Part shown: piece by piece, positions 1-13,187 of the stretch | Position numbering within the stretch: position 1 is the first letter of the stretch | Layout: every line of letters begins with the position of its first letter | Assembly (NCBI GenBank): GCA_030040775.1 | Contig: JASHTB010000122.1 | Coordinates: 1 to 46,072, forward strand | From: Thermoplasmata archaeon | GTDB taxonomy: Archaea > Thermoplasmatota > Thermoplasmata > Lutacidiplasmatales > UBA184 | DNA length: 46,072 nt | Direction of reading: 5' to 3' | Program-made: the position numbers and the translations under genes | Notes under the pieces: generated by a model | What the model was told of the DNA's origin: nothing | What the model saw: only the letters and a program-made list of their open reading frames with translations | The model's database searches: none

Positions 1-27
1 GCGGTCTCTCCCTCGCAACCAACCCCG

Positions 28-91
28 GAAAGGTCCTTCCAGATCGCCGCAAGGGGACAGCACCGTGTCCCGGGCGTGCGAAGGACCTTTC
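28..91. repeat. Nested inverted repeat (potential long hairpin)
   Basis: The 12-nt arms 28-39 GAAAGGTCCTTC and 80-91 GAAGGACCTTTC are exact reverse complements. They enclose an inner 6-bp stem (54-59 GGGACA / 66-71 TGTCCC). The repeat lies in a stretch with no convincing ORF. Confidence 0.7.
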
Positions 92-550
92 TCACCCTTT
101 TCGAGCGAGCGGTTTTCATCGTTCGCCGGGCGGTGAACGGCCGACTCCCGGCCGAGCGTTCTGTGCTCGAACCCGTGAACGGCCCCGTGTCGCCCCCACC
201 GTCCGTTCCGACGCCGAATCGCTCGATTCGCCCTCGGACCTCGACGGTTTTCGACACGAAGCCGCCGTCTGCCCCGGCCGGCCCGAGGTCCGCCTCTCCG
301 GAACGCTGCGTTCTCGGGGAGCCCGACCCCCCTCGGTCGACCCTTACCGCCTAGCGCGTGGCGTCGCCCCGAGCTCGGGAACCTCGGTGGCCGCCGTCCC
401 GTGAGCGTACGCTCGGCCGGACCGACCGAGGGTAGGCTCCCGGCGAGGGTGTTCGCCCGCGCCTGACGTCTTCCCGGCCCCTGGGCCGGATCCCCGCTCG
501 TCCGAGTCCTGCGGCGGTCCGGCCGCGGGAGCGGGCCCTCGGACGACGGT

Positions 551-639: not shown

Positions 640-960
640 GTGGAGACCGAAACGGACCAATCGAACCGAGTCGAACCCGTTCTCGACGAACCTGTTCCGG
701 ACCGCGACCGCTGGCCGGGTCGCCCCCTCGGCGCGCTTCGGCTGCCGATCGCCGGACCGTACCGTCCCTGGGCCCGGCTCTACCGATTACCGGACGGCCG
801 GCTCCTGTGGCGGGTCCGCCTCTGGGAGGTCGACCGCGCGGTCGCCCGCACCGTAGAGACCGAGGTCCTCCGCACGTTTGCGCGAGAGAATCGGCTCCCG
901 GCCCTTCTCGCCGCGATCGACGCACTGGTCGGCCGGGCTCGCGCCAGAGGCGAACCGTGA
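640..960 (+). CDS. Hypothetical small protein (106 aa) coupled to the downstream ATPase
   Basis: GTG start. The composition is balanced (W/Y/F/E/D present), unlike the R/S/P-rich alternative frames. Its TGA stop overlaps the GTG start of the next gene (GTGA at 957-960). GGAGGAGG at 617-624 lies upstream. I recognise no family. Confidence 0.5.
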   Translation: METETDQSNRVEPVLDEPVPDRDRWPGRPLGALRLPIAGPYRPWARLYRLPDGRLLWRVRLWEVDRAVARTVETEVLRTFARENRLPALLAAIDALVGRARARGEP

Positions 961-3527
961 GCGCCGCAGAGACGCTCACCGTGCGGTGCCACGGACCGAC
1001 CGCCCTGCGCCTGCGCTGGTACCGCTCGCTCGCCCAAGCTCTCGCCGCGACCGCTCCCCCCGCCGGCGTCCTCTTCGAGGCGACCGCCGAGAACCCGACC
1101 CCGGTCGCGACGGTGCGACCGCGCTCTCTCATCGAAACCGTGGCCGCTTCCCCCGGCGTTCGGGGTCTCGACCTCGAACGGTTTCCCGACGCCCCGCCGC
1201 TCGAGCCGCCACCGGGATGGAGCGGAGAGATCCGTCTTCTCGTACTGCCGTACCCGTTCGGGCCACCTCGCCCTCCGCCGTCCGTCCCGACGGACGCACC
1301 CGACCTCGCGCCGCTCGTCGGCCCTCGAGGGTGGGTCGGGTTCCAAACCGCCTGGGTTCGAGGAGCCCGCGGCGACGTCCGGGTCGCCCGCCGGTTCCGT
1401 CTTGCGACGCCGGACGAAACCGACCTCGACTGCCGGGTCGATGCCGTGTCGGTCGCCGTCGCCTTGGAGTGGGCGGGGGCGGTCGGAGGGGCGATGACGA
1501 CCCGACGCGCTCCTCGAGGGTCGCTGCGCGACTGGCGCCGCGGCGGGCTCGCCCGAGTTCCGCCGGACGCTTGGGTCGTTCCGAGCGGACGACCGCTCGA
1601 GCGGACCGCGGAGTACCTCTGGAGCGAGCGCGCGGAGTCGGCCGGGGCGGTCGCGGGCCACCGGATCGTCTTCGGAGCGTCCGGAGCGGGGAAGACGACG
1701 TTCCTGGCCCGGCACGCGGCCGACCAGGCGAATCGGGGTAGCGCGGTCGTCGTGCTCGACCTCCACGGTGACCTCGCGCCCCTCGCCTTCCGTTTCCTAG
1801 GGGCCACAGCCCGAGCAAGGGCGGTCGCGGTCGATGCCTCGTCCCCTCCCGTACCCGGAGTCGCTGCGCTCGCTCCGGGCCCGGTACCCGAGGACCGGTC
1901 CGCCGCCCACCTGGTCGCCGCGTTGAAACGCTTGAGCCCGGACGGGACCGACCTTCACTGGGGGTTCCGCCTCGAGCGAATCTTCGACTCGTTCGTCCGA
2001 ATCGTGCAGGAGTCGGACGGCTCGCTGGTCGACCTCTACGGGCTCCTCACAGACTCGTCGCTCCGCGAGGCCGCCCGCCTACGTACCCGGCGAAGCGACC
2101 TCGCCCGATTCCTTGAGGAGCTCGAACCGGTGCTCAAGCGCCAGCCCGACTTCCTCTGGTCGGCCGCGACGCGTCTTTCCAAGGTCGTCCTCGTTCCGGC
2201 GTTGCGCGAGCTCCTCGCCCCGTCCGACGGAGGGGTTCCGGTCGAGGAGATCCTCCTGGAAGGGCGCTCGCTGTTCGTGCGGATCCCGTTCGCGGTCTTG
2301 GGTCCGGAGGCGGCGTCGTTCGCGGGGACCCTCATCCTCGCCCGGCTCTACCTCGGACTGGCGGCCCGAAAGGAAGCGGGAAGCCCTCACCCGCCGATCC
2401 TGTTCGTCCTGGATGAGGTCCAGGGCCTCGCGCCTCGGCTCGTCGCCGAGCTCCTGACGGAGAGCCGCAAGTTCGGATTGCGCTCGCTCGTCGCGACGCA
2501 GTACCCCGACCGCCTCTCGAACGAGCTAAGGGGCGCGGCCGCGGGCTCGCTGACGGACGTCGTAGCGTTCCGTGTTCCGAGGCGCTCAGCCGGGTCGACC
2601 GGGGAGTGGGTCGGACTCACCCCGGAAGAGGCCGAGCGCTCCCTCCCGGGCCTTCCCGCCGGTCACGGCGTGCGATTCGACCCCGAGGCGGGGGTCGTCC
2701 GGGCGGTCCCTGCGGTCCCTCCGGGCCCGGACAACGGACTCGTCGATTGGGCGAACGCCTTGGTCACGACCCGAGAGGAGTTCGGACCCACCCCCGATCC
2801 TTCGGAACGGCTCCACGACGACCGTGACGTCGTCGACCGGATCCTCCTCGCGGTCCTCGCGGCCGAAGAGGAGGGCCGCCCGATCGCGGGAGACGGGGTC
2901 ATCGCGGCCGCGCTCGCCCTCCCCGGGGTGCCTTGGCCCGCCGATCGGCTCGCCGAAGGCTGGAATCGGGCGGTCCGTCACGGCTTCGTCCGCCCCTCCT
3001 CCCTCGGTTCCTCGCTCACCCCGGCCGGGGAACGGGTCCTGGGCCTCACGGCTCCGACCGCCGCGTCGAACGAGAGCGCCGAGCACCGGGGGCTCCTCCT
3101 CGCGGCGTTCCGAGTCTTCGCGCGTCGCGGCTACCGGATCGAGATCCTGCGCCAGGGCCGGTTCGACACCACTCTGCCCGATGCCGTCTTTCGCCAGATC
3201 CCCGAGCGCTCGGCCGCGACGCCGGCCGAACTCGGCGAAGCGGTCGACCGGGCACGTCGGGGCTGGGCCTGGCGTTTCTTCTCGGGGCGGGACGTCTTCA
3301 TCGAGGCGGAGGTCTCGGGGGCCCTGCGGCGAGAGCGGATCCGGCACGGATGGCGCAAGGCCCTCGCTCGAGGGGCGTTCGTTCTCTTCGTCGTCGGCGA
3401 CGCCGTTCGAGCCCGTCGCGTTCGGGCCGCGCTCGATGCGATGGGCGTGCCGCGCGGTCGGGCCCAGGTGTGGACGCTTCCGGTCGTTCGTCGTACTTCG
3501 AGCCCAGGGGGAGTTGCGAACGAGTAA
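957..3527 (+). CDS. Soluble FtsK/HerA-superfamily, TraG/TraD/VirD4-like P-loop ATPase with a C-terminal wHTH-like segment and restriction-endonuclease-like domain (856 aa)
   Basis: Walker A is HRIVFGASGAGKTT (nt 1674-1697), followed by VVVLDLHGDL and a long helical insert. Walker B is ILFVLDEVQ (nt 2397-2423), followed by RKFGLRSLVATQYPDRL. There is no N-terminal TM segment. The frame upstream of 957 is R/P-rich junk, so I chose GTG 957. Confidence 0.8.
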   Translation: MSAAETLTVRCHGPTALRLRWYRSLAQALAATAPPAGVLFEATAENPTPVATVRPRSLIETVAASPGVRGLDLERFPDAPPLEPPPGWSGEIRLLVLPYPFGPPRPPPSVPTDAPDLAPLVGPRGWVGFQTAWVRGARGDVRVARRFRLATPDETDLDCRVDAVSVAVALEWAGAVGGAMTTRRAPRGSLRDWRRGGLARVPPDAWVVPSGRPLERTAEYLWSERAESAGAVAGHRIVFGASGAGKTTFLARHAADQANRGSAVVVLDLHGDLAPLAFRFLGATARARAVAVDASSPPVPGVAALAPGPVPEDRSAAHLVAALKRLSPDGTDLHWGFRLERIFDSFVRIVQESDGSLVDLYGLLTDSSLREAARLRTRRSDLARFLEELEPVLKRQPDFLWSAATRLSKVVLVPALRELLAPSDGGVPVEEILLEGRSLFVRIPFAVLGPEAASFAGTLILARLYLGLAARKEAGSPHPPILFVLDEVQGLAPRLVAELLTESRKFGLRSLVATQYPDRLSNELRGAAAGSLTDVVAFRVPRRSAGSTGEWVGLTPEEAERSLPGLPAGHGVRFDPEAGVVRAVPAVPPGPDNGLVDWANALVTTREEFGPTPDPSERLHDDRDVVDRILLAVLAAEEEGRPIAGDGVIAAALALPGVPWPADRLAEGWNRAVRHGFVRPSSLGSSLTPAGERVLGLTAPTAASNESAEHRGLLLAAFRVFARRGYRIEILRQGRFDTTLPDAVFRQIPERSAATPAELGEAVDRARRGWAWRFFSGRDVFIEAEVSGALRRERIRHGWRKALARGAFVLFVVGDAVRARRVRAALDAMGVPRGRAQVWTLPVVRRTSSPGGVANE

Positions 3528-3552
3528 GAGCGGGGGCTCCTTGGTCGGGGAC

Positions 3553-4086
3553 GTGCGGCTCTTCGTCGCGATCGAGGTCGGCTCCCTTCCCGGGGGAAAT
3601 TCGGAAGCGCCCGAACACCTCACGCTCTCCTTCCTCGGCGACGTGCCGGACGAGCGGGTCGACCGGGTCTCTTCCGCCCTCGACCGGGCCACGCGAGGAG
3701 TCCCCCCGTTCGACTTGGTGCTCGAAGGGGTCGGTGCGTTTCCGTCGCGCGAGCGTCCCCGCGTCGTCTGGGTCGGAGCGACCCGAGGGGGTCAGGAGAC
3801 CTCGGCCCTCGCCGGACGAATCGCCTCGGCGCTCGCGGCCGAAGGGTTCTCCCCCGAGCGGGAGCGGTTCGTGCCCCACCTCACGCTCTTCCGGGTCCGC
3901 TCTCCCGAACAGCGTCGCCGGGCCGCGGCGCTCCTTTCGGGGGCGGAGACGCCACCCCCTCCGCGCGCGCTCCGGGTCTCGGAGGTCGTACTGAAGGAGA
4001 GCACGCTCACCGCACGCGGTGCGATCCATCGGACCCGGGCGGCGTTCCGGCTCGGCCGACCTGAAGCGCCGGCCGGTCCGAACTAG
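3553..4086 (+). CDS. thpR: 2H phosphoesterase: RNA 2',3'-cyclic phosphodiesterase / 2'-5' RNA ligase (ThpR/LigT family)
   Basis: The N-terminus VRLFVAIEV and two H-x-T-x motifs (HLTLSFLG, PHLTLFRV) fit the family. I chose GTG 3553; TTG 3541 is also possible. The gene starts about 25 nt after the ATPase stop. Confidence 0.85.
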   Translation: MRLFVAIEVGSLPGGNSEAPEHLTLSFLGDVPDERVDRVSSALDRATRGVPPFDLVLEGVGAFPSRERPRVVWVGATRGGQETSALAGRIASALAAEGFSPERERFVPHLTLFRVRSPEQRRRAAALLSGAETPPPPRALRVSEVVLKESTLTARGAIHRTRAAFRLGRPEAPAGPN

Positions 4087-4235: not shown

Positions 4236-7037
4236 GTGTCCGCTCCCCGCTTCCTCCGGTCCTGTCGTCCCGCGGCCCTCGGCCTGGTCGTGGCCCTCGC
4301 CGCCCTCGCCGTGCTCGGCGGGGCCTCCGCTTCGCCGCTCGGTCGGTCGGACCCCCTGCCGAACGCGGTCTCGGGCAACGGCCCGTGCCCTTCCCCCGGC
4401 GTACCGACAGAGATCTCGGGTACCGTGACCGTCGAAGGGGGACCCCTTCCCTCCACCTCGAACGACGGCGTGGCGGTCAGCGCCTCCTACTCCGTTCAGG
4501 TCGAGGTCCGGTACGTATCGAACGACTCGCTCGCGGAGGAGAACTGCACGCCGGAGCAGGAGTCGACGGTCACCAACGCGAGCGGAGGGTTCGCGCTCGC
4601 TCTCACGCTGCCACCGAACACCTGCAGCGCGGGCCCGAACGGGGAGGAGTGCACGTCGTACACCGGACCGTTCGGGCGGCTAGCGGTCGCCACGGAGAGC
4701 GTCCCGGCCGGCTACGGGCTCTCGGTCTCCGAAAGCGGCTCTTCGTTCGACCTCGTGTGGGTCGCCGACCTCGCCTTCCTCTCCATGACTCCCTCCTCTC
4801 CCCTCGCGACGATCGCGGGCGGAGGCTCCCTCGCGTACGTCGCCTCTCCCGAGATGGCGAACGGCTCCGCGAGCCCGCTCACCCCGACCTACTCCTGGTC
4901 GCTGAGCGGTCCGGGGTACCGCTTCTCGTCCTCCCCCGCCGGCGGTTCCGTTACGGTCGTCGCTCCCGCCGGCTGGTCCAACGGGACCCTCACGGTCAAC
5001 GCTACGGCGAGCGTCGACTCAGAGCCGTTCGTCGCCCCTAACGTCACGGTCGGTCTCGCGACCGTGCCCACCACGGTCACCGGAGGAGGCGTCAACCGAA
5101 CGACCGTCGACGCGGGGGGGACGGTCGCCCTGAGCGCGAACGCTACGGGGGCGGAGGGGTACGCCTACTCCCTCTCCGTCGCCTCCGGGCTTTCGCCCGA
5201 GTCGTACGCCACCGGTTGCACGACGACCCCGGTCTCTTCGTCCGAGGTCGACGTCCGTTGCGCGACCGACCTTCTCTTCCCGGATCCGGGGAACGGAACG
5301 GTCTCCGCCGCCGTATCGAACGGCCCCTCGTCGGCCGCGTGGGTCTCTTCTCTCCTCACGGTCGCCCCTCCTCCGGCGGTGAGCCTCGTGCCCTCCACAC
5401 CGGTCGGCTACGCAGGGAGACCGCTCCCGGTCGAGGTGCGGGCCGCGGCGGGGGTCGCTCCGTACGTCGACGCGTGCTTTGACCCGGGGTTCGGAGCCCC
5501 TCTCTGCCGTTCGGGCTCGGGAGCTATCTTCTCGTTCGCCCCGACCTACCCCGCTGTCGGGAACTACACGGCCCGGGCGTGGCTCGTCGATGCGACCGGG
5601 ACGAACCGCTCACTCTCCGCCGAGGTGCGGGTCGTCGCGCCGCTCGCGGTCGGCCCGCTCTCGGTGGGAGGTGCTCTCCTTTCGGCCGGCGTCTCGGTCG
5701 CACTCTCGGCGACGGTCGCGGGCGGAGCGTTCCCCGCCGAGGCGTGGTGGAACGCCTCGGACGAGGCGGGGCCGATCGCGACCGTCCCGGTAACGGGGGA
5801 CGGAGCTCTCGCGGTCGAGTTCCAGCCCCCGGCGGCCGGGCCCGCTCAACTCACGCTCACGGTCGTAGACGACCTCGGGTCGGTCGCCGAGGCGAACCTC
5901 ACCGTGCCGGTCGGCCCCGGACCGGTCGCCACCGTCGCCCCCGTGCCACCGGACTCGGGCGCCTCGGCGCTCGTCGGCCGGCCGGTGTCACTCGAGTGGA
6001 GGGCATTCGACGCGTTCGGGGAGGCGGTCCCGACGTTCAGCGCGCCGGTCGACCTCGTGGTCCAGAGCGCGTCGGGCCAGGCCGCCCTCTCTTGGGTGAA
6101 CCTCTCGACCCTGGGGGCGCTCTCCTCCTCGCCGGAAGGGTCGTTCGCGATCCCGGCCTCGGCGTGGGCGGACGGCGTCCTTCCGGTCACGTTCACCCCG
6201 GCCGAGTCGGGGTCGCTCACGGTCGCCCTCGAAGGGTCCGCCCTCCCCGGAGGGGCCGCCTCGGTATCGGTGAGCGCCGAGCCGGACCTCGACCACCTTC
6301 GCCTCTACGACCCGGTCGTCCAGAGGCCCGGCGGCGACACGAACCGGACGTTCTGGCACGTCTCCGACCGGTTCGGGGACCCGGTTCCGGGAGCGTTCGT
6401 CACGGTTCAGTTCGCACTCTCCGGCGGGGAGAGCGTGACCGTCCTACCGGTCGGGTGGTACGGTGGTGGAGGGACGGGCGTCTGGCTCAACTACTCCCTC
6501 CCTGCCGGGACCGTCGGGATCGTACGGATCCTCGACCTCGCGGGCGACGTCCTCTACGGTCCTGTTCGGCTTCCCTCCTTCCCTTCCCCCAGTGTTCCTG
6601 TCGTCCCCCTCACGGCGGCGAGCGGCTCGGGAGGGCTCGCGGCCGCGGTCGCCGGCATCTCCGTCCCCTACCTCGCTCGGCGTCGCGCGAAGCGGGCGCG
6701 TCCGAGGAGCGACGAGGAGGAGCTGCGCCGCTTCGCCGAAGGGCGCGCCGTGGCGACCGAGGTCGTCCGCTCGCTCGGTCCGGCCGACGCGCTCGCGATT
6801 CGAGCGGCGTGGGTCGGGGAGACGCCTGCGGCCGCCGAGTTCGAGGAGTGGCTCGCCTCCCTGGTCGCGGACGGGACGCTCACGGAAACGACCGGGCGGA
6901 CGGGCACGGTCGAGTACGTCCTCCCTCCGGAGGTCCCCGACGGGCCTCCCCGAGTGGTCGTGGACGCCGACGCGCTCGAGCGGGCAGTCGCCCGGCGCGA
7001 CGCGGCCGTGCGCGAGGAAGAGCCGGCGGCCCGTTAG
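4236..7037 (+). CDS. Large secreted/membrane-anchored surface glycoprotein-like protein (933 aa)
   Basis: GTG start with a signal-like segment RPAALGLVVALAALAVLGGASA. The S/T/G/A/V-rich body has more than a dozen N-x-S/T sequons. A hydrophobic segment GGLAAAVAGISVPYLA is followed by RRRAKRARPR and a charged tail of about 115 aa. Confidence 0.75.
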   Translation: MSAPRFLRSCRPAALGLVVALAALAVLGGASASPLGRSDPLPNAVSGNGPCPSPGVPTEISGTVTVEGGPLPSTSNDGVAVSASYSVQVEVRYVSNDSLAEENCTPEQESTVTNASGGFALALTLPPNTCSAGPNGEECTSYTGPFGRLAVATESVPAGYGLSVSESGSSFDLVWVADLAFLSMTPSSPLATIAGGGSLAYVASPEMANGSASPLTPTYSWSLSGPGYRFSSSPAGGSVTVVAPAGWSNGTLTVNATASVDSEPFVAPNVTVGLATVPTTVTGGGVNRTTVDAGGTVALSANATGAEGYAYSLSVASGLSPESYATGCTTTPVSSSEVDVRCATDLLFPDPGNGTVSAAVSNGPSSAAWVSSLLTVAPPPAVSLVPSTPVGYAGRPLPVEVRAAAGVAPYVDACFDPGFGAPLCRSGSGAIFSFAPTYPAVGNYTARAWLVDATGTNRSLSAEVRVVAPLAVGPLSVGGALLSAGVSVALSATVAGGAFPAEAWWNASDEAGPIATVPVTGDGALAVEFQPPAAGPAQLTLTVVDDLGSVAEANLTVPVGPGPVATVAPVPPDSGASALVGRPVSLEWRAFDAFGEAVPTFSAPVDLVVQSASGQAALSWVNLSTLGALSSSPEGSFAIPASAWADGVLPVTFTPAESGSLTVALEGSALPGGAASVSVSAEPDLDHLRLYDPVVQRPGGDTNRTFWHVSDRFGDPVPGAFVTVQFALSGGESVTVLPVGWYGGGGTGVWLNYSLPAGTVGIVRILDLAGDVLYGPVRLPSFPSPSVPVVPLTAASGSGGLAAAVAGISVPYLARRRAKRARPRSDEEELRRFAEGRAVATEVVRSLGPADALAIRAAWVGETPAAAEFEEWLASLVADGTLTETTGRTGTVEYVLPPEVPDGPPRVVVDADALERAVARRDAAVREEEPAAR

Positions 7038-9318: not shown

Positions 9319-9411
9319 CGGCGCGAAAGTGTAGAGAGAAACGCGAGGACGGTCTACTTAAATCTGAGGCCCGGGACAGCGAGGTCAGCGCTCCGGTTTC
9401 GGTGGCGGCGT

Positions 9412-9722
9412 GCTAGGCCAGCAGGATTGCCGTTCGGACGGACCCCGCGGTGACCCCGGGTGCTCCTCAGCCCCGTCACCCCGCCAGCGTCGACGGGTCA
9501 CGGTAAGGCTGCTCCCGTCAGGACCTGACCCGTTGTCCGTGATGGATAACCGCTAGAGCGCTCCTCCGAGCGCCCGTCGCGGTGCCCGCGGCCCAGCGGA
9601 ACAGAGCGTCGACGGAACACCTCGAGACGTGGAATCCGCCCGAACGTCGCTCCTGCCTGTCACCCCCGCTAAGGACGGTTTCGGTGTGTAAGGGGACGCC
9701 CAACCCCCCGGTCTAGCCTAGC
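9412..9722 (-). ncRNA. Signal recognition particle RNA (archaeal 7S RNA), about 311 nt
   Basis: The minus strand reads GCUAGGCUAGACCGGGGGGUUGGGCGUCCCC... (archaeal Alu-domain 5-prime end). It contains GGUCAGGUCCUGACGGGAGCAGCC (conserved helix-8 SRP54-binding motif, plus-strand 9507-9530). It ends in CUGCUGGCCUAGC, which pairs with the 5-prime end for 7 bp. The ends are approximate. Confidence 0.85.
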
Positions 9723-9814
9723 GTACCGAAGACGACAGGACTGCTACATAGCCCTTCGTCTTTCGGGTGGAATATTCCCCCGGGCCGGCTTCCGCCGTCC
9801 GGGTCGCGTCCTGC

Positions 9815-10916: not shown

Positions 10917-13187
10917 CTAACGGATGTGCTCGAGGCTGAACGAGCCGAGGTTGAACGCGCGCTTGCTGAACGTGTATCCGACCCAGGCCCGGGCCTGCGC
11001 CTCGCCGAGGCCCCTGACCGCGAGGAACGTCTTCATCTGCTCGACCTTGAGGTTGAGCGACCCGTCGACCATGTGCTCGAGCGTCTCGAGGTCCGACTCC
11101 GAGTGCATCCCGCTTTCCAGGACGTAGTAGCCCACGGCCCCGTCGAGCTTGCGGCGACCGATGAACGGCTGAAGGAACCGGAACGAAGAGGCGGTGTCGA
11201 GCATCGCGGTGACGGTCGAGACCGACTCGAAGATGAGCCGATACGTCGGGAACTTCTCCTTGAGCTCCTCGCCGAAACCGGTGACGGTCTGGGCGAGCTG
11301 GTCGAGCACCCCCTTGTCGCTCGGCGAGAGCAGGCGGACGATCGGGCTCGACTGGGCCACCCCGACCTGGCGCGAGTAGAGGTCGACGTAGCGGACCATC
11401 GCCTTCTTCTCCGCCTCGGGAAAGCCGGGATACAGGGCCGCGAGGTCGTCCCGGACCTGCTGGTAGGTCTTGTCGGTCACGACCCAGATCGACGGGATCC
11501 CGGTCCGGAGCCCCTCGATGGAGAAGAGCCGGGCGAGCGTGTCCTTTCCGGTGTGGGACGGGCCGTTCAGGAGGACCTGGCTCCCGGGCGAAAACCCTCC
11601 GTACAGGAGGTCGTCCAGGCGCCGGATGCCACTCTTCACCTTCACCTCGGCCCCGGTCGCGGTCGCCTCCTCGCGCGCCTGGTGTGCCTCGGCCGCTCCC
11701 TCGCCGGCCGCGCTCATCGCTTCGAGGTCCGCGAGACGGGTCGCGATCTGGCTCTCGCGCGCTCGGAGCTCCGCCTCCTTCTGGGCGAGCTCGCGACGCA
11801 GCTCGTAGAGCCGACGCGTCTCGTCGGTCGCGATGCTCGTCCCGGTCGTCGCGACCTCGCGCCGGACCTCCTCGAGTCGGCGGGCCTCGATGTCGAGGGC
11901 CTGGCGCCGGGTCCCGAGCTGCTGCTCGGACTGGGCGAGGTCGCGCTCACGGACCTCGATCGGGCCCCGGCGGCGCTCGAGCTCCTCGGCGCTCAGACGG
12001 ATCTCCTCGAACCGGGAGCGAAGCTCGTTCTCGCGGGAGATGAGGTCCTTCTCCCGCTGGCTGACCTCGTCGAGCCGGCGGGTGAGCTCCTCGGCCAGCG
12101 GGGCGCGCTGCTGGGTGAGGAGCGCCTCGCGTTCCTTCGCGCGCTCCACTTCCCCGGCGAGGCTCCGCATGTCTCCCTCGAGCTGGACGATCCGACGGCG
12201 CAGTTCCGTCTCCCGCTCGACGTACTCGGCCTCGCGCCCCGTGAACTCCTCGCGCAGATGCTGCTCGAGCTCGCGCTGGGTCCTCTCGACGTCCTCGGAC
12301 CGGGACGTCGCCCGCTCCGCGCCGTTCGCCCCCGACGCACCGCCGGACCCCGGCGCCGACCGGGGCGCCCCCACCCCCTCGAGAGCGAGCATGCGGAGCT
12401 TGAGCTCGGCGATCTCATCCTCCTTGGCGCGGAGCGCGACCTCGCGCTCCTTGGCCTCCCGGGACCGGACGTACTTGATGACGGCGATCGAGCCACGCTT
12501 CACGTGCTCGACCTCGTCCTCGAGCGTCTTGCGCTTCGTGCGCTCGTCGTAGAGCTGCCGGTGGAGGTCCTGAACCTCCTGGATCATCGACGACGGGTCG
12601 AACTGGTCGGTCTTCACCCGGTCGAGGAGACCGGTGAGCCACCGAACGACGGTCTCCTCCCGCTCGAGGATCGGGGCGGGGGTGCCCTCTCCGGCCGGCC
12701 GGACGGCCGGCCCGGCCTCTGCGGAGACCGGAGCGGACGGCACGACCGGAGCCGTGGAGGCCGGCTCGCTAGAACGGATCCAATCCTCCATCGCGTGGTC
12801 GTCCCCTTCGACCCATTTCCTCAGCACGTCGGCCGACTCCTTCGGCGCGGCCGGCAGTTTGCGTCGCCGCGAGCGCTCCGGGCGACGGACCGTCCCGACC
12901 CATCGCTCGACGATGCGGTCGGAGTCGACGGTCGCTTCGGGCGCGGCCGCCTCGCCCGCCGAGGGCGTGACGCGATGAATCCGGGCGACCTCCTCGGCCG
13001 GGATCCCGGCGCGGTCGAGGTCGGCCGCCGAAGCCTCCCGGGCCGACTCGGGCGAGGTCAGGCCGGCTCCGAGCAGCCGTTCGGCCGTGTCGGGCCGCAC
13101 CCCGAGCGCGCGCGCGAGGTCGTCCGCGGTCCAGGAGTTCTGGGACCCCGGCCGGGCCGAAGAAGCGCCTGAGGTCGATCCGTCCAT
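10917..13187 (-). CDS. HhH + long coiled-coil + C-terminal KaiC/RecA-like (COG0467-type) domain protein (756 aa)
   Basis: The N-terminus has LGVRPDTAERLLGAGLTSPESAREASAADLDRAGIPAEEVARI (helix-hairpin-helix-like). About 300 aa of E/R/L-rich heptad-like sequence follows. The C-terminus has GIRRLDDLLYGGFSPGSQVLLNGPSHTGKDT (P-loop, plus-strand 11538-11564) and RLIFESVSTV. Confidence 0.8.
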   Translation of the reverse strand: MDGSTSGASSARPGSQNSWTADDLARALGVRPDTAERLLGAGLTSPESAREASAADLDRAGIPAEEVARIHRVTPSAGEAAAPEATVDSDRIVERWVGTVRRPERSRRRKLPAAPKESADVLRKWVEGDDHAMEDWIRSSEPASTAPVVPSAPVSAEAGPAVRPAGEGTPAPILEREETVVRWLTGLLDRVKTDQFDPSSMIQEVQDLHRQLYDERTKRKTLEDEVEHVKRGSIAVIKYVRSREAKEREVALRAKEDEIAELKLRMLALEGVGAPRSAPGSGGASGANGAERATSRSEDVERTQRELEQHLREEFTGREAEYVERETELRRRIVQLEGDMRSLAGEVERAKEREALLTQQRAPLAEELTRRLDEVSQREKDLISRENELRSRFEEIRLSAEELERRRGPIEVRERDLAQSEQQLGTRRQALDIEARRLEEVRREVATTGTSIATDETRRLYELRRELAQKEAELRARESQIATRLADLEAMSAAGEGAAEAHQAREEATATGAEVKVKSGIRRLDDLLYGGFSPGSQVLLNGPSHTGKDTLARLFSIEGLRTGIPSIWVVTDKTYQQVRDDLAALYPGFPEAEKKAMVRYVDLYSRQVGVAQSSPIVRLLSPSDKGVLDQLAQTVTGFGEELKEKFPTYRLIFESVSTVTAMLDTASSFRFLQPFIGRRKLDGAVGYYVLESGMHSESDLETLEHMVDGSLNLKVEQMKTFLAVRGLGEAQARAWVGYTFSKRAFNLGSFSLEHIR

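What the first reader, a model, noticed from the sequence alone, without database searches (positions are those of the whole stretch)
640..3527. Small ORF coupled to a soluble TraG/VirD4-HerA-type ATPase with wHTH and nuclease-like tail: candidate uncharacterised DNA-processing or defence module
The GTG at 957 overlaps the TGA of the 106-aa ORF (GTGA), so the two genes look translationally coupled. The 856-aa product has the motif order of type IV coupling proteins and HerA/FtsK pumps: HRIVFGASGAGKTT, VVVLDLHGDL, a long helical insert, ILFVLDEVQ, then RKFGLRSLVATQYPDRL. It has no N-terminal membrane anchor. Instead there is a soluble N-domain of about 235 aa, and the ATPase is followed by a helix-rich wHTH-like segment and a restriction-endonuclease-like tail. 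No relaxase, VirB4, integrase or other conjugation gene is visible in the window, and downstream neighbours are housekeeping. A small partner plus a translocase-type ATPase plus a putative nuclease effector is typical of ATPase-nuclease conflict systems. I cannot match this one to a named system.
Basis: partly seen in the sequence, partly recalled or inferred. Interest (0 to 1): 0.7.

Follow-up and report, generated by a model that had tools for sequence, protein, structure and literature searches.

The report
Chromosomal coupling-protein-like ATPase operon in archaea
A soil archaeon (Thermoplasmata) carries, as a stably inherited chromosomal operon, a small protein, a soluble relative of the ATPases that feed DNA into conjugation machines (fused to a DNA-binding and a nuclease-like domain) and an RNA/DNA-end phosphoesterase; nobody has characterised it, and sister lineages attach a DNA methylase to it, hinting at a restriction-like role.

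Summary
The 106-aa ORF (640-960) and the 856-aa ORF (957-3527) are real genes joined by a GTGA overlap. The large protein is a soluble TraG/VirD4/TrwB-type ATPase with a new N-domain, a wHTH-like segment and a C-terminal domain with a nuclease-like motif (H, PD, ExE, K).

The context is not what a defence island looks like. The window is a 70.6% GC Thermoplasmata chromosome. More than 80 species-level MAGs carry the order small ORF, ATPase, LigT, then a large secreted protein, SHMT and SRP RNA. ATPase divergence tracks SHMT divergence. No relative was found in IMG/VR.

The small-protein core is present in about 71% of informative loci. Where it is lost, a mini-ORF usually still overlaps the ATPase start.

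In a sister tier, the ATPase is followed by an N6/N4 DNA methyltransferase in 4 of 7 lineages, from two unrelated MTase genes, and then by LigT. Distant relatives with the same C-domain motif sit in a haloarchaeal megaplasmid cluster that encodes a pilin and is typed MPF_T.

Best reading: a coupling-protein-derived DNA translocase with a nuclease-like domain, fixed in the chromosome and probably doing methylation-linked, restriction-like DNA surveillance. A housekeeping repair role is the main rival. It is uncharacterised, and I rate it a new variant of a known kind.

The parts
640..960 (+). Small partner gene (106 aa). Variable N-terminal ~30 residues, then a conserved ~75-residue core (G.LRLPIAGPYRPWARLYR.PDGRLLW.VRLWE...LR.FAR.NRLP).
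   Evidence: ORF. 121 homologues. Alignment invariants G31 R34 P36 P40 P43 A45 R60 W62 L77 F80. Found upstream of the ATPase in 55/83 loci and in sister-tier loci. No Pfam, NCBIfam, PHROG or PADLOC family.
957..960 (+). GTGA stop/start overlap between the small ORF and the ATPase gene.
   Evidence: Sequence. The same 4-nt overlap occurs in 28/55 loci and a 14-nt overlap in 12/55. An ATGA/GTGA overlap is kept by a 28-58-codon mini-ORF in 15 of 18 loci that lack the small-protein core.
957..3527 (+). 856-aa soluble TraG/VirD4/TrwB-type ATPase with accessory domains (stop TAA 3525-3527).
   Evidence: Translation. More than 300 homologues of about 850 aa. AlphaFold model with mean pLDDT 81.5. Foldseek to TrwB: E 3e-9, TM (target) 0.55-0.60.
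957..1640 (+). N-terminal soluble alpha/beta domain (residues 1-228), with no recognisable family.
   Evidence: pLDDT mostly 80-95. Invariants R18 R54 P55 P84 Q130 W133 R146 W172 W193 W206. No Pfam, PDB or PHROG sequence hit. Diverges beyond profile recognition in the sister tier, where matches start at about residue 235.
1653..2726 (+). P-loop ATPase core (residues 233-590). Walker A at 1674-1697, all-alpha insert at about 1962-2258, Walker B at 2397-2423, RKFG...ATQ at 2466-2501.
   Evidence: Pfam TrwB_AAD_bind 26.2 bits (cut-off 20.5). PADLOC mad8 E 1.2e-12. Fold matches to TrwB, DotL (T4CC), DndH-C, HerA and Cag-beta. Invariant G240 G243 G245 K246 D486 E487 R504 K505 T514 Q515.
2889..3041 (+). 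Winged-helix-like segment (residues ~645-695), preceded by a long helical linker (594-640).
   Evidence: Secondary structure H-H-H-beta-beta in both models. Sub-significant Foldseek matches to the wHTH domains of CggR, PcaR, AphA and SSo2273.
3063..3476 (+). C-terminal alpha/beta domain (residues ~703-840) with the motif E706/E709-H710-R711 ... Q733-G-R ... P741-D742 ... E783-x-E785 ... K801. PD-(D/E)xK-like, of the D...ExE variant.
   Evidence: Residues invariant in 26 orthologues. H710, Q733, D742, G777, E783, E785 and K801 are also invariant in sister-tier and distant relatives. Topology alpha-beta-beta-(insert)-beta-alpha-beta-alpha-beta. Only weak, nuclease-enriched BFVD matches. No Pfam, PDB or Hjc match.
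3541..4086 (+). LigT / 2H-phosphoesterase gene. Probable third gene of the operon, 13 nt after the ATPase stop (spacer GAGCGGGGGCTCC).
   Evidence: Pfam LigT_PEase 2.8e-27 and 2_5_RNA_ligase2 3.4e-17. Spacer sequence. Directly downstream of the ATPase in 77/83 loci and in 5/7 sister-tier lineages, with a 4-nt overlap in two of them.

Best explanation
This is a three-gene chromosomal operon: small protein, ATPase fusion, LigT. It encodes a soluble, probably ring-forming NTP-driven DNA translocase of the type IV coupling protein (TraG/VirD4/TrwB) lineage.

Proposed mechanism (inferred): the motor is tethered to a winged-helix DNA-binding module and to a C-terminal PD-(D/E)xK-like domain of the D...ExE type. 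The enzyme would bind DNA through the wHTH, translocate on it using ATP, and nick or cut it with the C-domain. The co-translated small protein would act as a dispensable adaptor or regulator of the N-domain or motor. LigT would process nucleic-acid ends or a nucleotide product.

Proposed origin (inferred): the module was captured from an archaeal plasmid DNA-transfer apparatus and became a fixed, vertically inherited gene of a soil Thermoplasmata lineage (TMEG/Lutacidiplasmatales-like).

Proposed role (my commitment): methylation-linked, restriction-like surveillance of DNA. Two unrelated N6/N4 DNA methyltransferase genes have been recruited immediately downstream of the ATPase in sister lineages. 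In the window's own clade no methyltransferase is linked. There it would work with an unlinked methylase or independently of modification.

Shown:
- gene structure and the stop/start overlap
- ATPase family and fold
- conservation of the catalytic-looking residues
- synteny and vertical inheritance
- LigT and methyltransferase linkage
- plasmid relatives

Inferred: hexamer formation, DNA as the substrate, nuclease activity, the role of the small protein and of LigT, and the restriction-like role.
For: - ATPase identity: Pfam TrwB_AAD_bind is above its cut-off. Foldseek top hits are TrwB (E 3e-9, TM 0.55-0.60 over ~410 columns, so the all-alpha insert is included), then the L. pneumophila T4CC, DndH C-domain, HerA and Cag-beta. 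Walker A/B and RK.G...Q are invariant.
- Outgroup: proteins from the 1.84-billion-protein search carry TrwB_AAD_bind plus TraG-D_C.
- C-domain: H710, Q733, D742, E783, E785 and K801 are invariant from the window down to 19%-identical relatives. The topology fits alpha-beta-beta-beta-alpha-beta. Weak BFVD matches are enriched in nucleases.
- Operon: the stop/start overlap with the upstream ORF is kept even where the ORF's core is deleted. LigT is adjacent in 77/83 loci and in 5/7 sister lineages with different flanks.
- Methylase link: PF01555 genes lie directly downstream of the ATPase in 4/7 sister-tier lineages. Three are orthologous (63-68% identity) and one is unrelated (26%).
- Defence-type ATPase similarity: PADLOC mad8 E 1.2e-12. 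Mad8 belongs to a methylation-associated defence system (bioRxiv 10.1101/2023.03.30.534895).
- Fast evolution: dN is about 4x that of SHMT, and GC3 is lower than in the neighbours (0.80 against 0.87-0.93).
- Plasmid origin: the haloarchaeal megaplasmid pNATPE02 carries two T4CP-like genes in a cluster that also encodes a pilin, and PLSDB types the plasmid MPF_T. One of the two has the same wHTH plus DH..Q.G..PDA..IEAE..K module. Another distant relative lies about 3.6 kb from a tyrosine recombinase gene.
Against: - No methyltransferase is linked to the ATPase in any of the 83 main-clade loci or in the 46-kb window.
- Order-wide vertical inheritance at a fixed site next to housekeeping genes is unusual for restriction or defence systems (Mantel r 0.63, p~0.001).
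- No relatives were found in IMG/VR.
- The nuclease fold is not supported by any significant sequence or structure match.
- ExE in place of ExK could also mean a non-catalytic DNA-binding remnant.
- LigT acts on RNA-type 2',3'-cyclic phosphate ends in characterised members (own knowledge). That does not fit a simple DNA restriction scheme.
- Nothing here tests oligomeric state, substrate or activity.
Confidence: 0.4

Rival explanations
1. Housekeeping DNA-maintenance motor. The same translocase-nuclease fusion serves the cell's own chromosome: processing of repair or recombination intermediates (HerA-NurA-like), stalled forks, or chromosome resolution and segregation (FtsK-like, with the wHTH playing the part of a gamma domain). 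LigT would be an end-healing partner. The methyltransferases in sister lineages would mark strands or sites, as Dam does for MutH.
For: - Vertical inheritance and fixed synteny across more than 80 species-level genomes.
- ATPase distances correlate with SHMT distances.
- Strong conservation of all motifs.
- Operon with a nucleic-acid end-processing enzyme.
- An HhH-GPD glycosylase gene lies immediately downstream of LigT in the called-gene tables of the loci examined that way.
- No mobile-element genes in the window. None in IMG/VR.
Against: - The family is confined to one Thermoplasmata lineage plus a sister tier, with more distant relatives on plasmids or near integrases. A core maintenance function would be expected to be broader.
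- It evolves about 4x faster than SHMT.
- The partner protein core was lost in 3-4 clades.
- Two independent methyltransferase recruitments are more typical of restriction-modification logic.
- It is closer to TrwB and defence-type ATPases than to FtsK. FtsK is only a marginal partial match (E ~1e-2).
Confidence: 0.3
2. Relic or working part of a conjugative or DNA-transfer system. The ATPase would be a bona fide coupling protein that feeds DNA to a chromosomally encoded transfer or uptake apparatus (Ced/Ted-like or plasmid-like). The C-domain would serve as the missing archaeal 'relaxase'.
For: - Best structural and profile matches are coupling proteins.
- NCBI names one orthologue 'type IV secretory system conjugative DNA transfer family protein'.
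- Distant relatives sit in a pilin-encoding cluster on an MPF_T-typed haloarchaeal plasmid.
- Weak Walker-A-only hits to CedD and CedB.
Against: - No transmembrane anchor.
- No VirB4, pilin, relaxase or integrase in the window or in the conserved neighbourhood.
- TraG-D_C and T4SS-DNA_transf are not detected in the window protein.
- CedD/CedB scores are far below cut-off (19 against 600-700 bits).
Confidence: 0.1
3. RNA-directed module. The motor and C-domain would act on RNA (repair, surveillance or degradation). LigT would heal or hydrolyse 2',3'-cyclic phosphate ends, or degrade 2'-5'-linked or cyclic nucleotide signals.
For: The tight and phylogenetically deep coupling with LigT, including 4-nt overlaps. 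LigT_PEase domains are intact.
Against: - All characterised relatives of the motor (TrwB, HerA, DndH, FtsK) act on DNA (own knowledge; matches).
- The recruited methyltransferases match Pfam's N6_N4_Mtase 'DNA methylase' family.
- wHTH modules usually bind dsDNA.
Confidence: 0.1

Closest known systems
Type IV coupling proteins (TrwB of R388, VirD4, TraG/TraD; Pfam TrwB_AAD_bind PF10412)
   Same: P-loop nucleotide-binding domain with an inserted all-alpha domain. Walker A/B and RK.G...Q motifs. Best Foldseek matches (E 3e-9, TM 0.55-0.60) and the only Pfam hit above its cut-off.
   Different: No N-terminal membrane anchor. Extra 228-aa N-domain, wHTH and nuclease-like C-domain. No T4SS or relaxase context. 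Chromosomal and vertically inherited. TraG-D_C and T4SS-DNA_transf not detected.
Haloarchaeal megaplasmid T4CP-like proteins (e.g. the 1019-aa product of NATPE_RS19960 on Natrinema pellirubrum pNATPE02; metagenomic P0351, P0376, P0360)
   Same: Same ATPase subfamily and the same downstream wHTH plus C-domain motif (H...Q.G...PD...ExE...K).
   Different: About 19-23% identity. Longer (1019-1378 aa) with other N- or C-extensions. On a plasmid in a pilin-encoding cluster typed MPF_T, or a few kb from an integrase. No small-protein homologue, LigT or SHMT synteny.
Defence-associated HerA/TraG-like ATPases: Mad8 of MADS, the DndH C-domain (DndFGH), SIR2-HerA, DUF4297-HerA, TdpAB
   Same: ATPase domain similarity (PADLOC mad8 E 1.2e-12; 7es4 E 2e-7; HerA complexes E 1e-7 to 1e-5). 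An ATPase paired with a nuclease-type effector. Methyltransferase linkage in sister lineages recalls MADS, R-M and Dnd logic.
   Different: None of the partner genes (mad1-7, dndF/G, SIR2, DUF4297, TdpB) is present. Effector and DNA-binding modules are fused in one chain. Fixed core-genome location rather than a variable island.
HerA-NurA and FtsK
   Same: Same superfamily of ring translocases. A motor combined with a nuclease (HerA-NurA) or with a C-terminal wHTH (FtsK gamma).
   Different: DUF87 and HerA_C score below Pfam cut-offs. FtsK is only a marginal partial structural match. No HAS barrel or NurA partner seen. The wHTH is followed by a further domain.
BamHI-type PD-(D/E)xK nucleases (catalytic D94, E111, E113; own knowledge)
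   Same: The D...ExE arrangement instead of D...ExK, on an alpha-beta-beta-beta-alpha-beta core.
   Different: No detectable sequence or significant structural similarity to any restriction enzyme. Activity untested.

Membership tests
Type IV coupling protein (VirD4/TraG/TrwB) | P-loop NBD with Walker A/B and an inserted all-alpha domain, matching family profiles | tested here: met
   TrwB_AAD_bind 26.2 bits against a 20.5 cut-off. TrwB is the top Foldseek hit with TM 0.55-0.60 over ~410 columns. Motifs are invariant.
Type IV coupling protein (VirD4/TraG/TrwB) | N-terminal transmembrane anchor | tested here: not met
   Maximum KD19 of 1.53, located in the ATPase core. The N-terminus is a folded soluble domain.
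Type IV coupling protein (VirD4/TraG/TrwB) | Encoded with relaxase and T4SS (VirB4, pilin) genes on a conjugative element | tested here: not met
   None in the window or in the conserved neighbourhoods. Such a context is seen only for distant haloarchaeal relatives.
Type IV coupling protein (VirD4/TraG/TrwB) | TraG-D_C / T4SS-DNA_transf profile match | tested here: not met
   Not reported for the window protein at E<=1. Present in outgroup proteins.
HerA helicase (HerA-NurA) | DUF87/HerA_C profile match above cut-off, HAS-barrel N-domain, NurA partner | tested here: not met
   DUF87 18.9 (<23.2) and HerA_C 17.9 (<22), Walker A region only. NCBIfam HerA_antiphage 14.8 against 800. No NurA-like neighbour.
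FtsK/SpoIIIE | FtsK_SpoIIIE motor profile and C-terminal gamma wHTH | tested here: not met
   No Pfam FtsK_SpoIIIE hit. The FtsK motor is only a partial match at E ~1e-2. The wHTH is not terminal.
MADS (methylation-associated defence system) | Multi-gene operon mad1-8 including methylase, specificity subunit and kinase | tested here: not met
   Only the mad8 model matches (E 1.2e-12, ATPase region). Neighbours are LigT, a secreted protein and SHMT. System definition from bioRxiv 10.1101/2023.03.30.534895.
DndFGH / phosphorothioate-sensing restriction | DndH-type ATPase together with dndF and dndG (and usually dndA-E) | tested here: not met
   Fold similarity to the DndH C-domain only (7es4, E 2e-7). 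No additional genes in the operon.
PD-(D/E)xK nuclease superfamily | alpha-beta-beta-beta-alpha-beta core carrying D ... (D/E)xK (or a variant) acidic/lysine triad | tested here: inconclusive
   Predicted topology and invariant E/H, PD742, E783xE785 and K801 fit.
Restriction-modification-like system | Cognate DNA methyltransferase genetically linked to the nuclease/motor | tested here: not met
   No MTase next to the ATPase in the window or in 83 main-clade loci. Met in 4/7 sister-tier lineages.
Ced/Ted archaeal DNA import systems | CedB/CedD-type ATPase above NCBIfam cut-off, with membrane CedA-type partners | tested here: not met
   CedD 18.8 bits against 600; CedB 13.1 against 700. The small partner has no hydrophobic segment.

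The most novel reading that the evidence does not exclude
A conjugative coupling-protein lineage that carries its own wHTH and nuclease module was domesticated as a core chromosomal operon of an entire archaeal order. On this reading the C-domain could be the long-missing DNA-processing activity of archaeal plasmid transfer. In the chromosome the operon would work as a new single-chain translocase-nuclease system that reads DNA methylation, with a translationally coupled small regulator and a 2H phosphoesterase. That would make it a previously unrecognised type of restriction-like or chromosome-surveillance machine.
Probability: 0.3. Interest if true: 0.75.

Novelty: new variant of a known kind. 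Interest (0 to 1): 0.55.

Why it matters
The finding would matter in three ways.
- Coupling-protein ATPases are known as membrane-anchored gatekeepers of conjugation. A soluble version fused to DNA-binding and nuclease-like domains, kept for a long evolutionary time in the core genome of uncultured soil archaea, would show how plasmid machinery is converted into a cellular DNA-handling enzyme.
- The shared C-domain in haloarchaeal plasmid T4CP-like proteins is a concrete candidate for the unidentified DNA-processing step of archaeal plasmid transfer.
- The repeated recruitment of DNA methyltransferases gives a testable hypothesis for a new restriction-like system.

The claim is limited. Function is inferred only from sequence, predicted structure and gene context.

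Tried and rejected
- Sequence-profile identification of the small protein, the N-domain and the C-domain: Pfam, NCBIfam, PHROGs, PADLOC and PDB searches with single sequences and alignments gave nothing usable.
- Foldseek of the isolated C-terminal 254 residues against PDB: no hit below E 0.01. The top hits (wHTH plus Rossmann O-methyltransferases) reflect domain arrangement, not homology.
- MADS, Dnd, HerA-NurA, FtsK and Ced memberships were considered and rejected (see the membership table).
- Integrated conjugative element or provirus: rejected. The flanks are housekeeping, synteny is conserved and IMG/VR gave no hits.
- 'The small ORF is a high-GC artefact': rejected by 121 homologues and conserved adjacency.
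- 'LigT adjacency is just neutral synteny': judged unlikely, because it persists in sister lineages with different flanks and with 4-nt overlaps.
- The upstream ~313-aa genes of two distant relatives share no similarity with each other (BLASTP) and have no Pfam family. They were not compared with the small protein.
- dN/dS values (0.4-0.6) were computed, but dS is saturated or biased at 70% GC. Only relative dN is used.
- Rfam (gathering and E-value modes) gave no identity for the conserved upstream RNA.
- The third homologous-protein search was left unused.

Full report
**1. Observation**

The window is 70.6% GC. It carries an archaeal SRP RNA at 9411-9723.

The 106-aa ORF at 640-960 starts with GTG. 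The GTG at 957-959 overlaps the TGA at 958-960.

Starting at 957 gives an 856-aa protein. That N-terminus coincides with those of more than 100 full-length homologues of 50-73% identity and about 98% coverage.

All quoted motifs are present, and their key residues are invariant in a 26-sequence alignment:
- Walker A: G240, G243, G245, K246
- Walker B: D486, E487
- Downstream motif: R504, K505, G507, T514, Q515

There is no transmembrane segment. The maximum 19-residue hydropathy is 1.53, and it lies inside the ATPase core.

**2. What the proteins are**

*ATPase core.* Pfam places it in TrwB_AAD_bind at 26.2 bits against a 20.5 cut-off. HerA/DUF87 and generic AAA families fall below their cut-offs. 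NCBIfam gives only Walker-A-level hits to TraD, CedD, VirB4 and HerA, far below cut-off. PADLOC gives mad8 at E 1.2e-12 over residues 234-524.

An AlphaFold model built on 26 homologues has mean pLDDT 81.5. Its best PDB matches are:
- TrwB, E 3e-9, TM (target) 0.55-0.60 over ~410 columns, which covers both the nucleotide-binding and the all-alpha domain
- the Legionella coupling complex
- the DndH C-domain
- defence and repair HerA proteins, TdpAB and Cag-beta

FtsK is only a marginal partial match.

*Accessory domains.* The N-domain (1-228), the C-terminal region (592-845) and the small protein have no Pfam, PHROG, NCBIfam, PADLOC or PDB sequence relatives.

*C-terminal region.* A separate model of the last 254 residues has pLDDT 83.6. 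It shows a helical linker, an H-H-H-beta-beta unit and an alpha/beta domain. Foldseek finds nothing significant. The wHTH domains of CggR, PcaR, AphA and SSo2273 appear at E 0.3-0.8. In the viral library many weak hits are annotated as nucleases, restriction endonucleases or VRR-NUC.

*Nuclease-like motif.* The alpha/beta domain carries E706/E709-H710-R711, Q733-G-R, P741-D742, E783-x-E785 and K801. All are invariant among orthologues. D...ExE is the arrangement of the BamHI active site (own knowledge). The motif is therefore compatible with an active PD-(D/E)xK variant, but this is not demonstrated.

**3. Distribution and context**

*Main clade.* A scan of one genome per GTDB species found 125 relatives. 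The 80 loci kept are nearly all named Thermoplasmata archaeon. They come from soil, peat and acid-sulfate-soil MAGs, including UBA184, UBA61 and a 'Ca. Lutacidiplasmatales' MAG.

Across these loci the gene order is the same: small ORF, ATPase, LigT, often an HhH-GPD gene on the other strand, a ~930-aa secreted protein, SHMT on the minus strand, then SRP RNA. LigT follows the ATPase in 77 of 83 loci.

Pairwise ATPase distances correlate with SHMT distances (r 0.63, Mantel p~0.001). This indicates vertical co-inheritance. The ATPase changes about four times faster at non-synonymous sites: dN is 0.35 against 0.09, and LigT is at 0.37.

The roughly 30 other ORFs of the window that I scanned are housekeeping or metabolic. 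Examples are Trp/Tyr-tRNA synthetase, Sua5, MetE, malic enzyme, PurC, PurH, histidine ammonia-lyase, a MutY-like glycosylase and FtsZ. No relative exists in 2.9 million IMG/VR contigs.

Taken together, these results argue against the picture of a mobile conflict island.

*The small ORF.* It has 121 homologues. A profile finds it immediately upstream of the ATPase in 55 of 83 loci. Among unique loci with enough upstream sequence, about 50 of 70 have it. The 20 that lack it fall into three or four clades on an ATPase tree.

The stop/start overlap is 4 nt in 28 loci and 14 nt in 12 loci. I tested 18 of the 'absent' loci. In 15 of them a 28-58-codon mini-ORF keeps the N-terminal (E/Q)P(V/I/L)P stretch and still ends in ATGA/GTGA on the ATPase start codon.

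The coupling to an upstream ORF is therefore more conserved than the small protein's core. The core behaves as a dispensable accessory.

*Wider family.* A profile search of 1.84 billion representatives gave 153 proteins below 1e-30. They fall into three groups.
- About 100 clusters are full-length orthologues.
- A sister tier (P0312-P0317, P0322; the one tier member that carries a source name is called 'Euryarchaeota archaeon') matches from residue ~235 onward.
- A few distant proteins (P0360, P0376, P0351) share ATPase, wHTH and C-domain.

H710, Q733, D742, G777, E783, E785 and K801 are invariant across all three groups.

*Sister-tier context.* I looked up seven sister-tier lineages.
- An N6_N4 DNA methyltransferase (PF01555; 2.3e-43 for the one rescored) lies directly downstream of the ATPase in four.
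- LigT is adjacent in five, with a 4-nt overlap to the ATPase in two.
- The flanking genes differ from those of the main clade.

Three of the methyltransferases are orthologous at 63-68% identity. The fourth is unrelated at 26%. A methylase was therefore recruited to this position at least twice. Small-protein homologues are present in three of these lineages. None of the 83 main-clade loci, and not the window, has a linked methylase.

*Plasmid relatives.* The only PLSDB matches of note are haloarchaeal megaplasmid genes annotated 'type IV secretory system conjugative DNA transfer family protein'.

On pNATPE02 two such genes sit in a cluster that also encodes a pilin. PLSDB types the plasmid MPF_T. 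The second gene has the wHTH and the DH..Q.G..PDA..IEAE..K module (hhalign E 3e-4). Another distant relative lies about 3.6 kb from a tyrosine recombinase gene.

**4. Mechanism**

*Shown:*
- an intact TrwB-like ATPase with an all-alpha insert
- a conserved catalytic-looking C-domain that travels with this ATPase subfamily from plasmids to chromosomes
- an operon structure with translational overlap
- persistent LigT linkage
- repeated methyltransferase recruitment in sister lineages
- vertical, positionally fixed inheritance in the window's lineage

*Inferred:*
- The protein forms a ring and translocates DNA.
- The wHTH provides DNA recognition.
- The C-domain nicks or cuts.
- The small protein modulates loading or activity.
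- LigT processes ends or a nucleotide product.

*My commitment.* I read this as a coupling-protein-derived translocase-nuclease that performs methylation-linked, restriction-like DNA surveillance and has become fixed in the chromosome (confidence about 0.4).

*Rivals:*
- The main rival is a housekeeping repair, recombination or segregation motor (about 0.3). It explains the vertical inheritance better. It explains the narrow distribution, the fast evolution and the double methylase recruitment less well.
- A working conjugation or uptake role is unlikely (about 0.1). There is no anchor and no apparatus genes.
- An RNA-directed role suggested by LigT is also unlikely (about 0.1). The methylases match Pfam's DNA methylase family, and the motor's relatives act on DNA.

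**5. Comparison and novelty**

It works like a T4CP/HerA-type motor joined to an effector. Membership fails in several named families:
- Canonical coupling protein: no anchor, no T4SS or relaxase context, no TraG-D_C.
- HerA-NurA, FtsK, MADS, DndFGH and Ced: defining features were tested and not met.

PD-(D/E)xK membership is inconclusive. In the papers I checked, the Lutacidiplasmatales genome paper (PMC9287336) does not mention HerA, TraG, conjugation or secretion, and one broader keyword search turned up nothing relevant. Databases call the protein 'hypothetical', 'ATP-binding protein' or, generically, a T4SS DNA-transfer family protein.

I rate it a new variant of a known kind: a soluble, domesticated coupling-protein-like ATPase with a fused wHTH and nuclease-like domain, in an operon with a small partner and LigT. 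Interest is 0.55. The architecture and its history are unusual and testable, but function rests on inference.

Noticed in passing
window ~14-95 (+); also e.g. L057:6596-6688, L021:5897-5993: A conserved ~85-nt structured RNA candidate lies upstream of the operon. Its 5' side is close to window position 1. RNAalifold on 21 loci gives a three-stem hairpin of 22 pairs, 11 of them with compensatory changes. The invariant loops include GCACCG and ATCGCC / GGCGTGCG. In other loci a conserved CGTTTC...TCAAATA (BRE/TATA-like) element sits ~30 nt upstream. There is no Rfam or tRNA match. Its distance to the small ORF varies from 300 to 3000 nt, so it is a syntenic neighbour and not part of the module.
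   Followed up: partly
window 672-682 (inside the small ORF, codons ~11-15): The DNA/peptide motif C(C/G)AACC(C/G)GTTC, followed by CCGAAC in the loci inspected by eye, encodes E/Q-P-V/I/L-P. It is conserved near the 5' end of the small ORF. It is retained 54-132 nt upstream of the ATPase start in most of the clades that have lost the small-protein core. I could not tell whether it is a peptide feature or a cis-regulatory site.
   Followed up: partly
window 957-3527 versus its neighbours: The ATPase and the small ORF have lower third-position GC (0.80 and 0.78) than the flanking housekeeping genes (0.86-0.93). This fits lower expression or an old foreign origin.
   Followed up: no
window 4236-7037 (+): A 933-aa protein with an N-terminal signal-like hydrophobic segment, many N-x-S/T sequons and a C-terminal hydrophobic stretch followed by basic residues. 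It looks like a surface or S-layer-type glycoprotein, has no Pfam family (hydropathy), is syntenic in most loci and evolves fast (dN 0.54).
   Followed up: no
window 10917-13187 (-): A 756-aa protein with a C-terminal KaiC/DUF7504 ATPase domain and a coiled-coil-like N-terminal part. A protein with the same KaiC/DUF7504 domains lies at the corresponding position in L003.
   Followed up: no
L003:5900-6690 (between the upstream RNA and the small ORF): A nucleotidyltransferase/HepT-like toxin-antitoxin pair is inserted upstream of the operon in one lineage. The region between the conserved RNA and the small ORF seems to be a variable insertion spot.
   Followed up: no
L098 (Natrinema pellirubrum pNATPE02, 33734-52363): A haloarchaeal plasmid cluster containing a pilin gene, several hypothetical genes and two tandem T4CP-like ATPase genes (1085 and 1019 aa). 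No relaxase is annotated in the stretch shown. The second ATPase carries the wHTH plus nuclease-like module.
   Followed up: partly
window 9411-9723 (-): Archaeal SRP RNA (142 bits). It establishes the archaeal origin of the window and is syntenic in related loci.
   Followed up: yes
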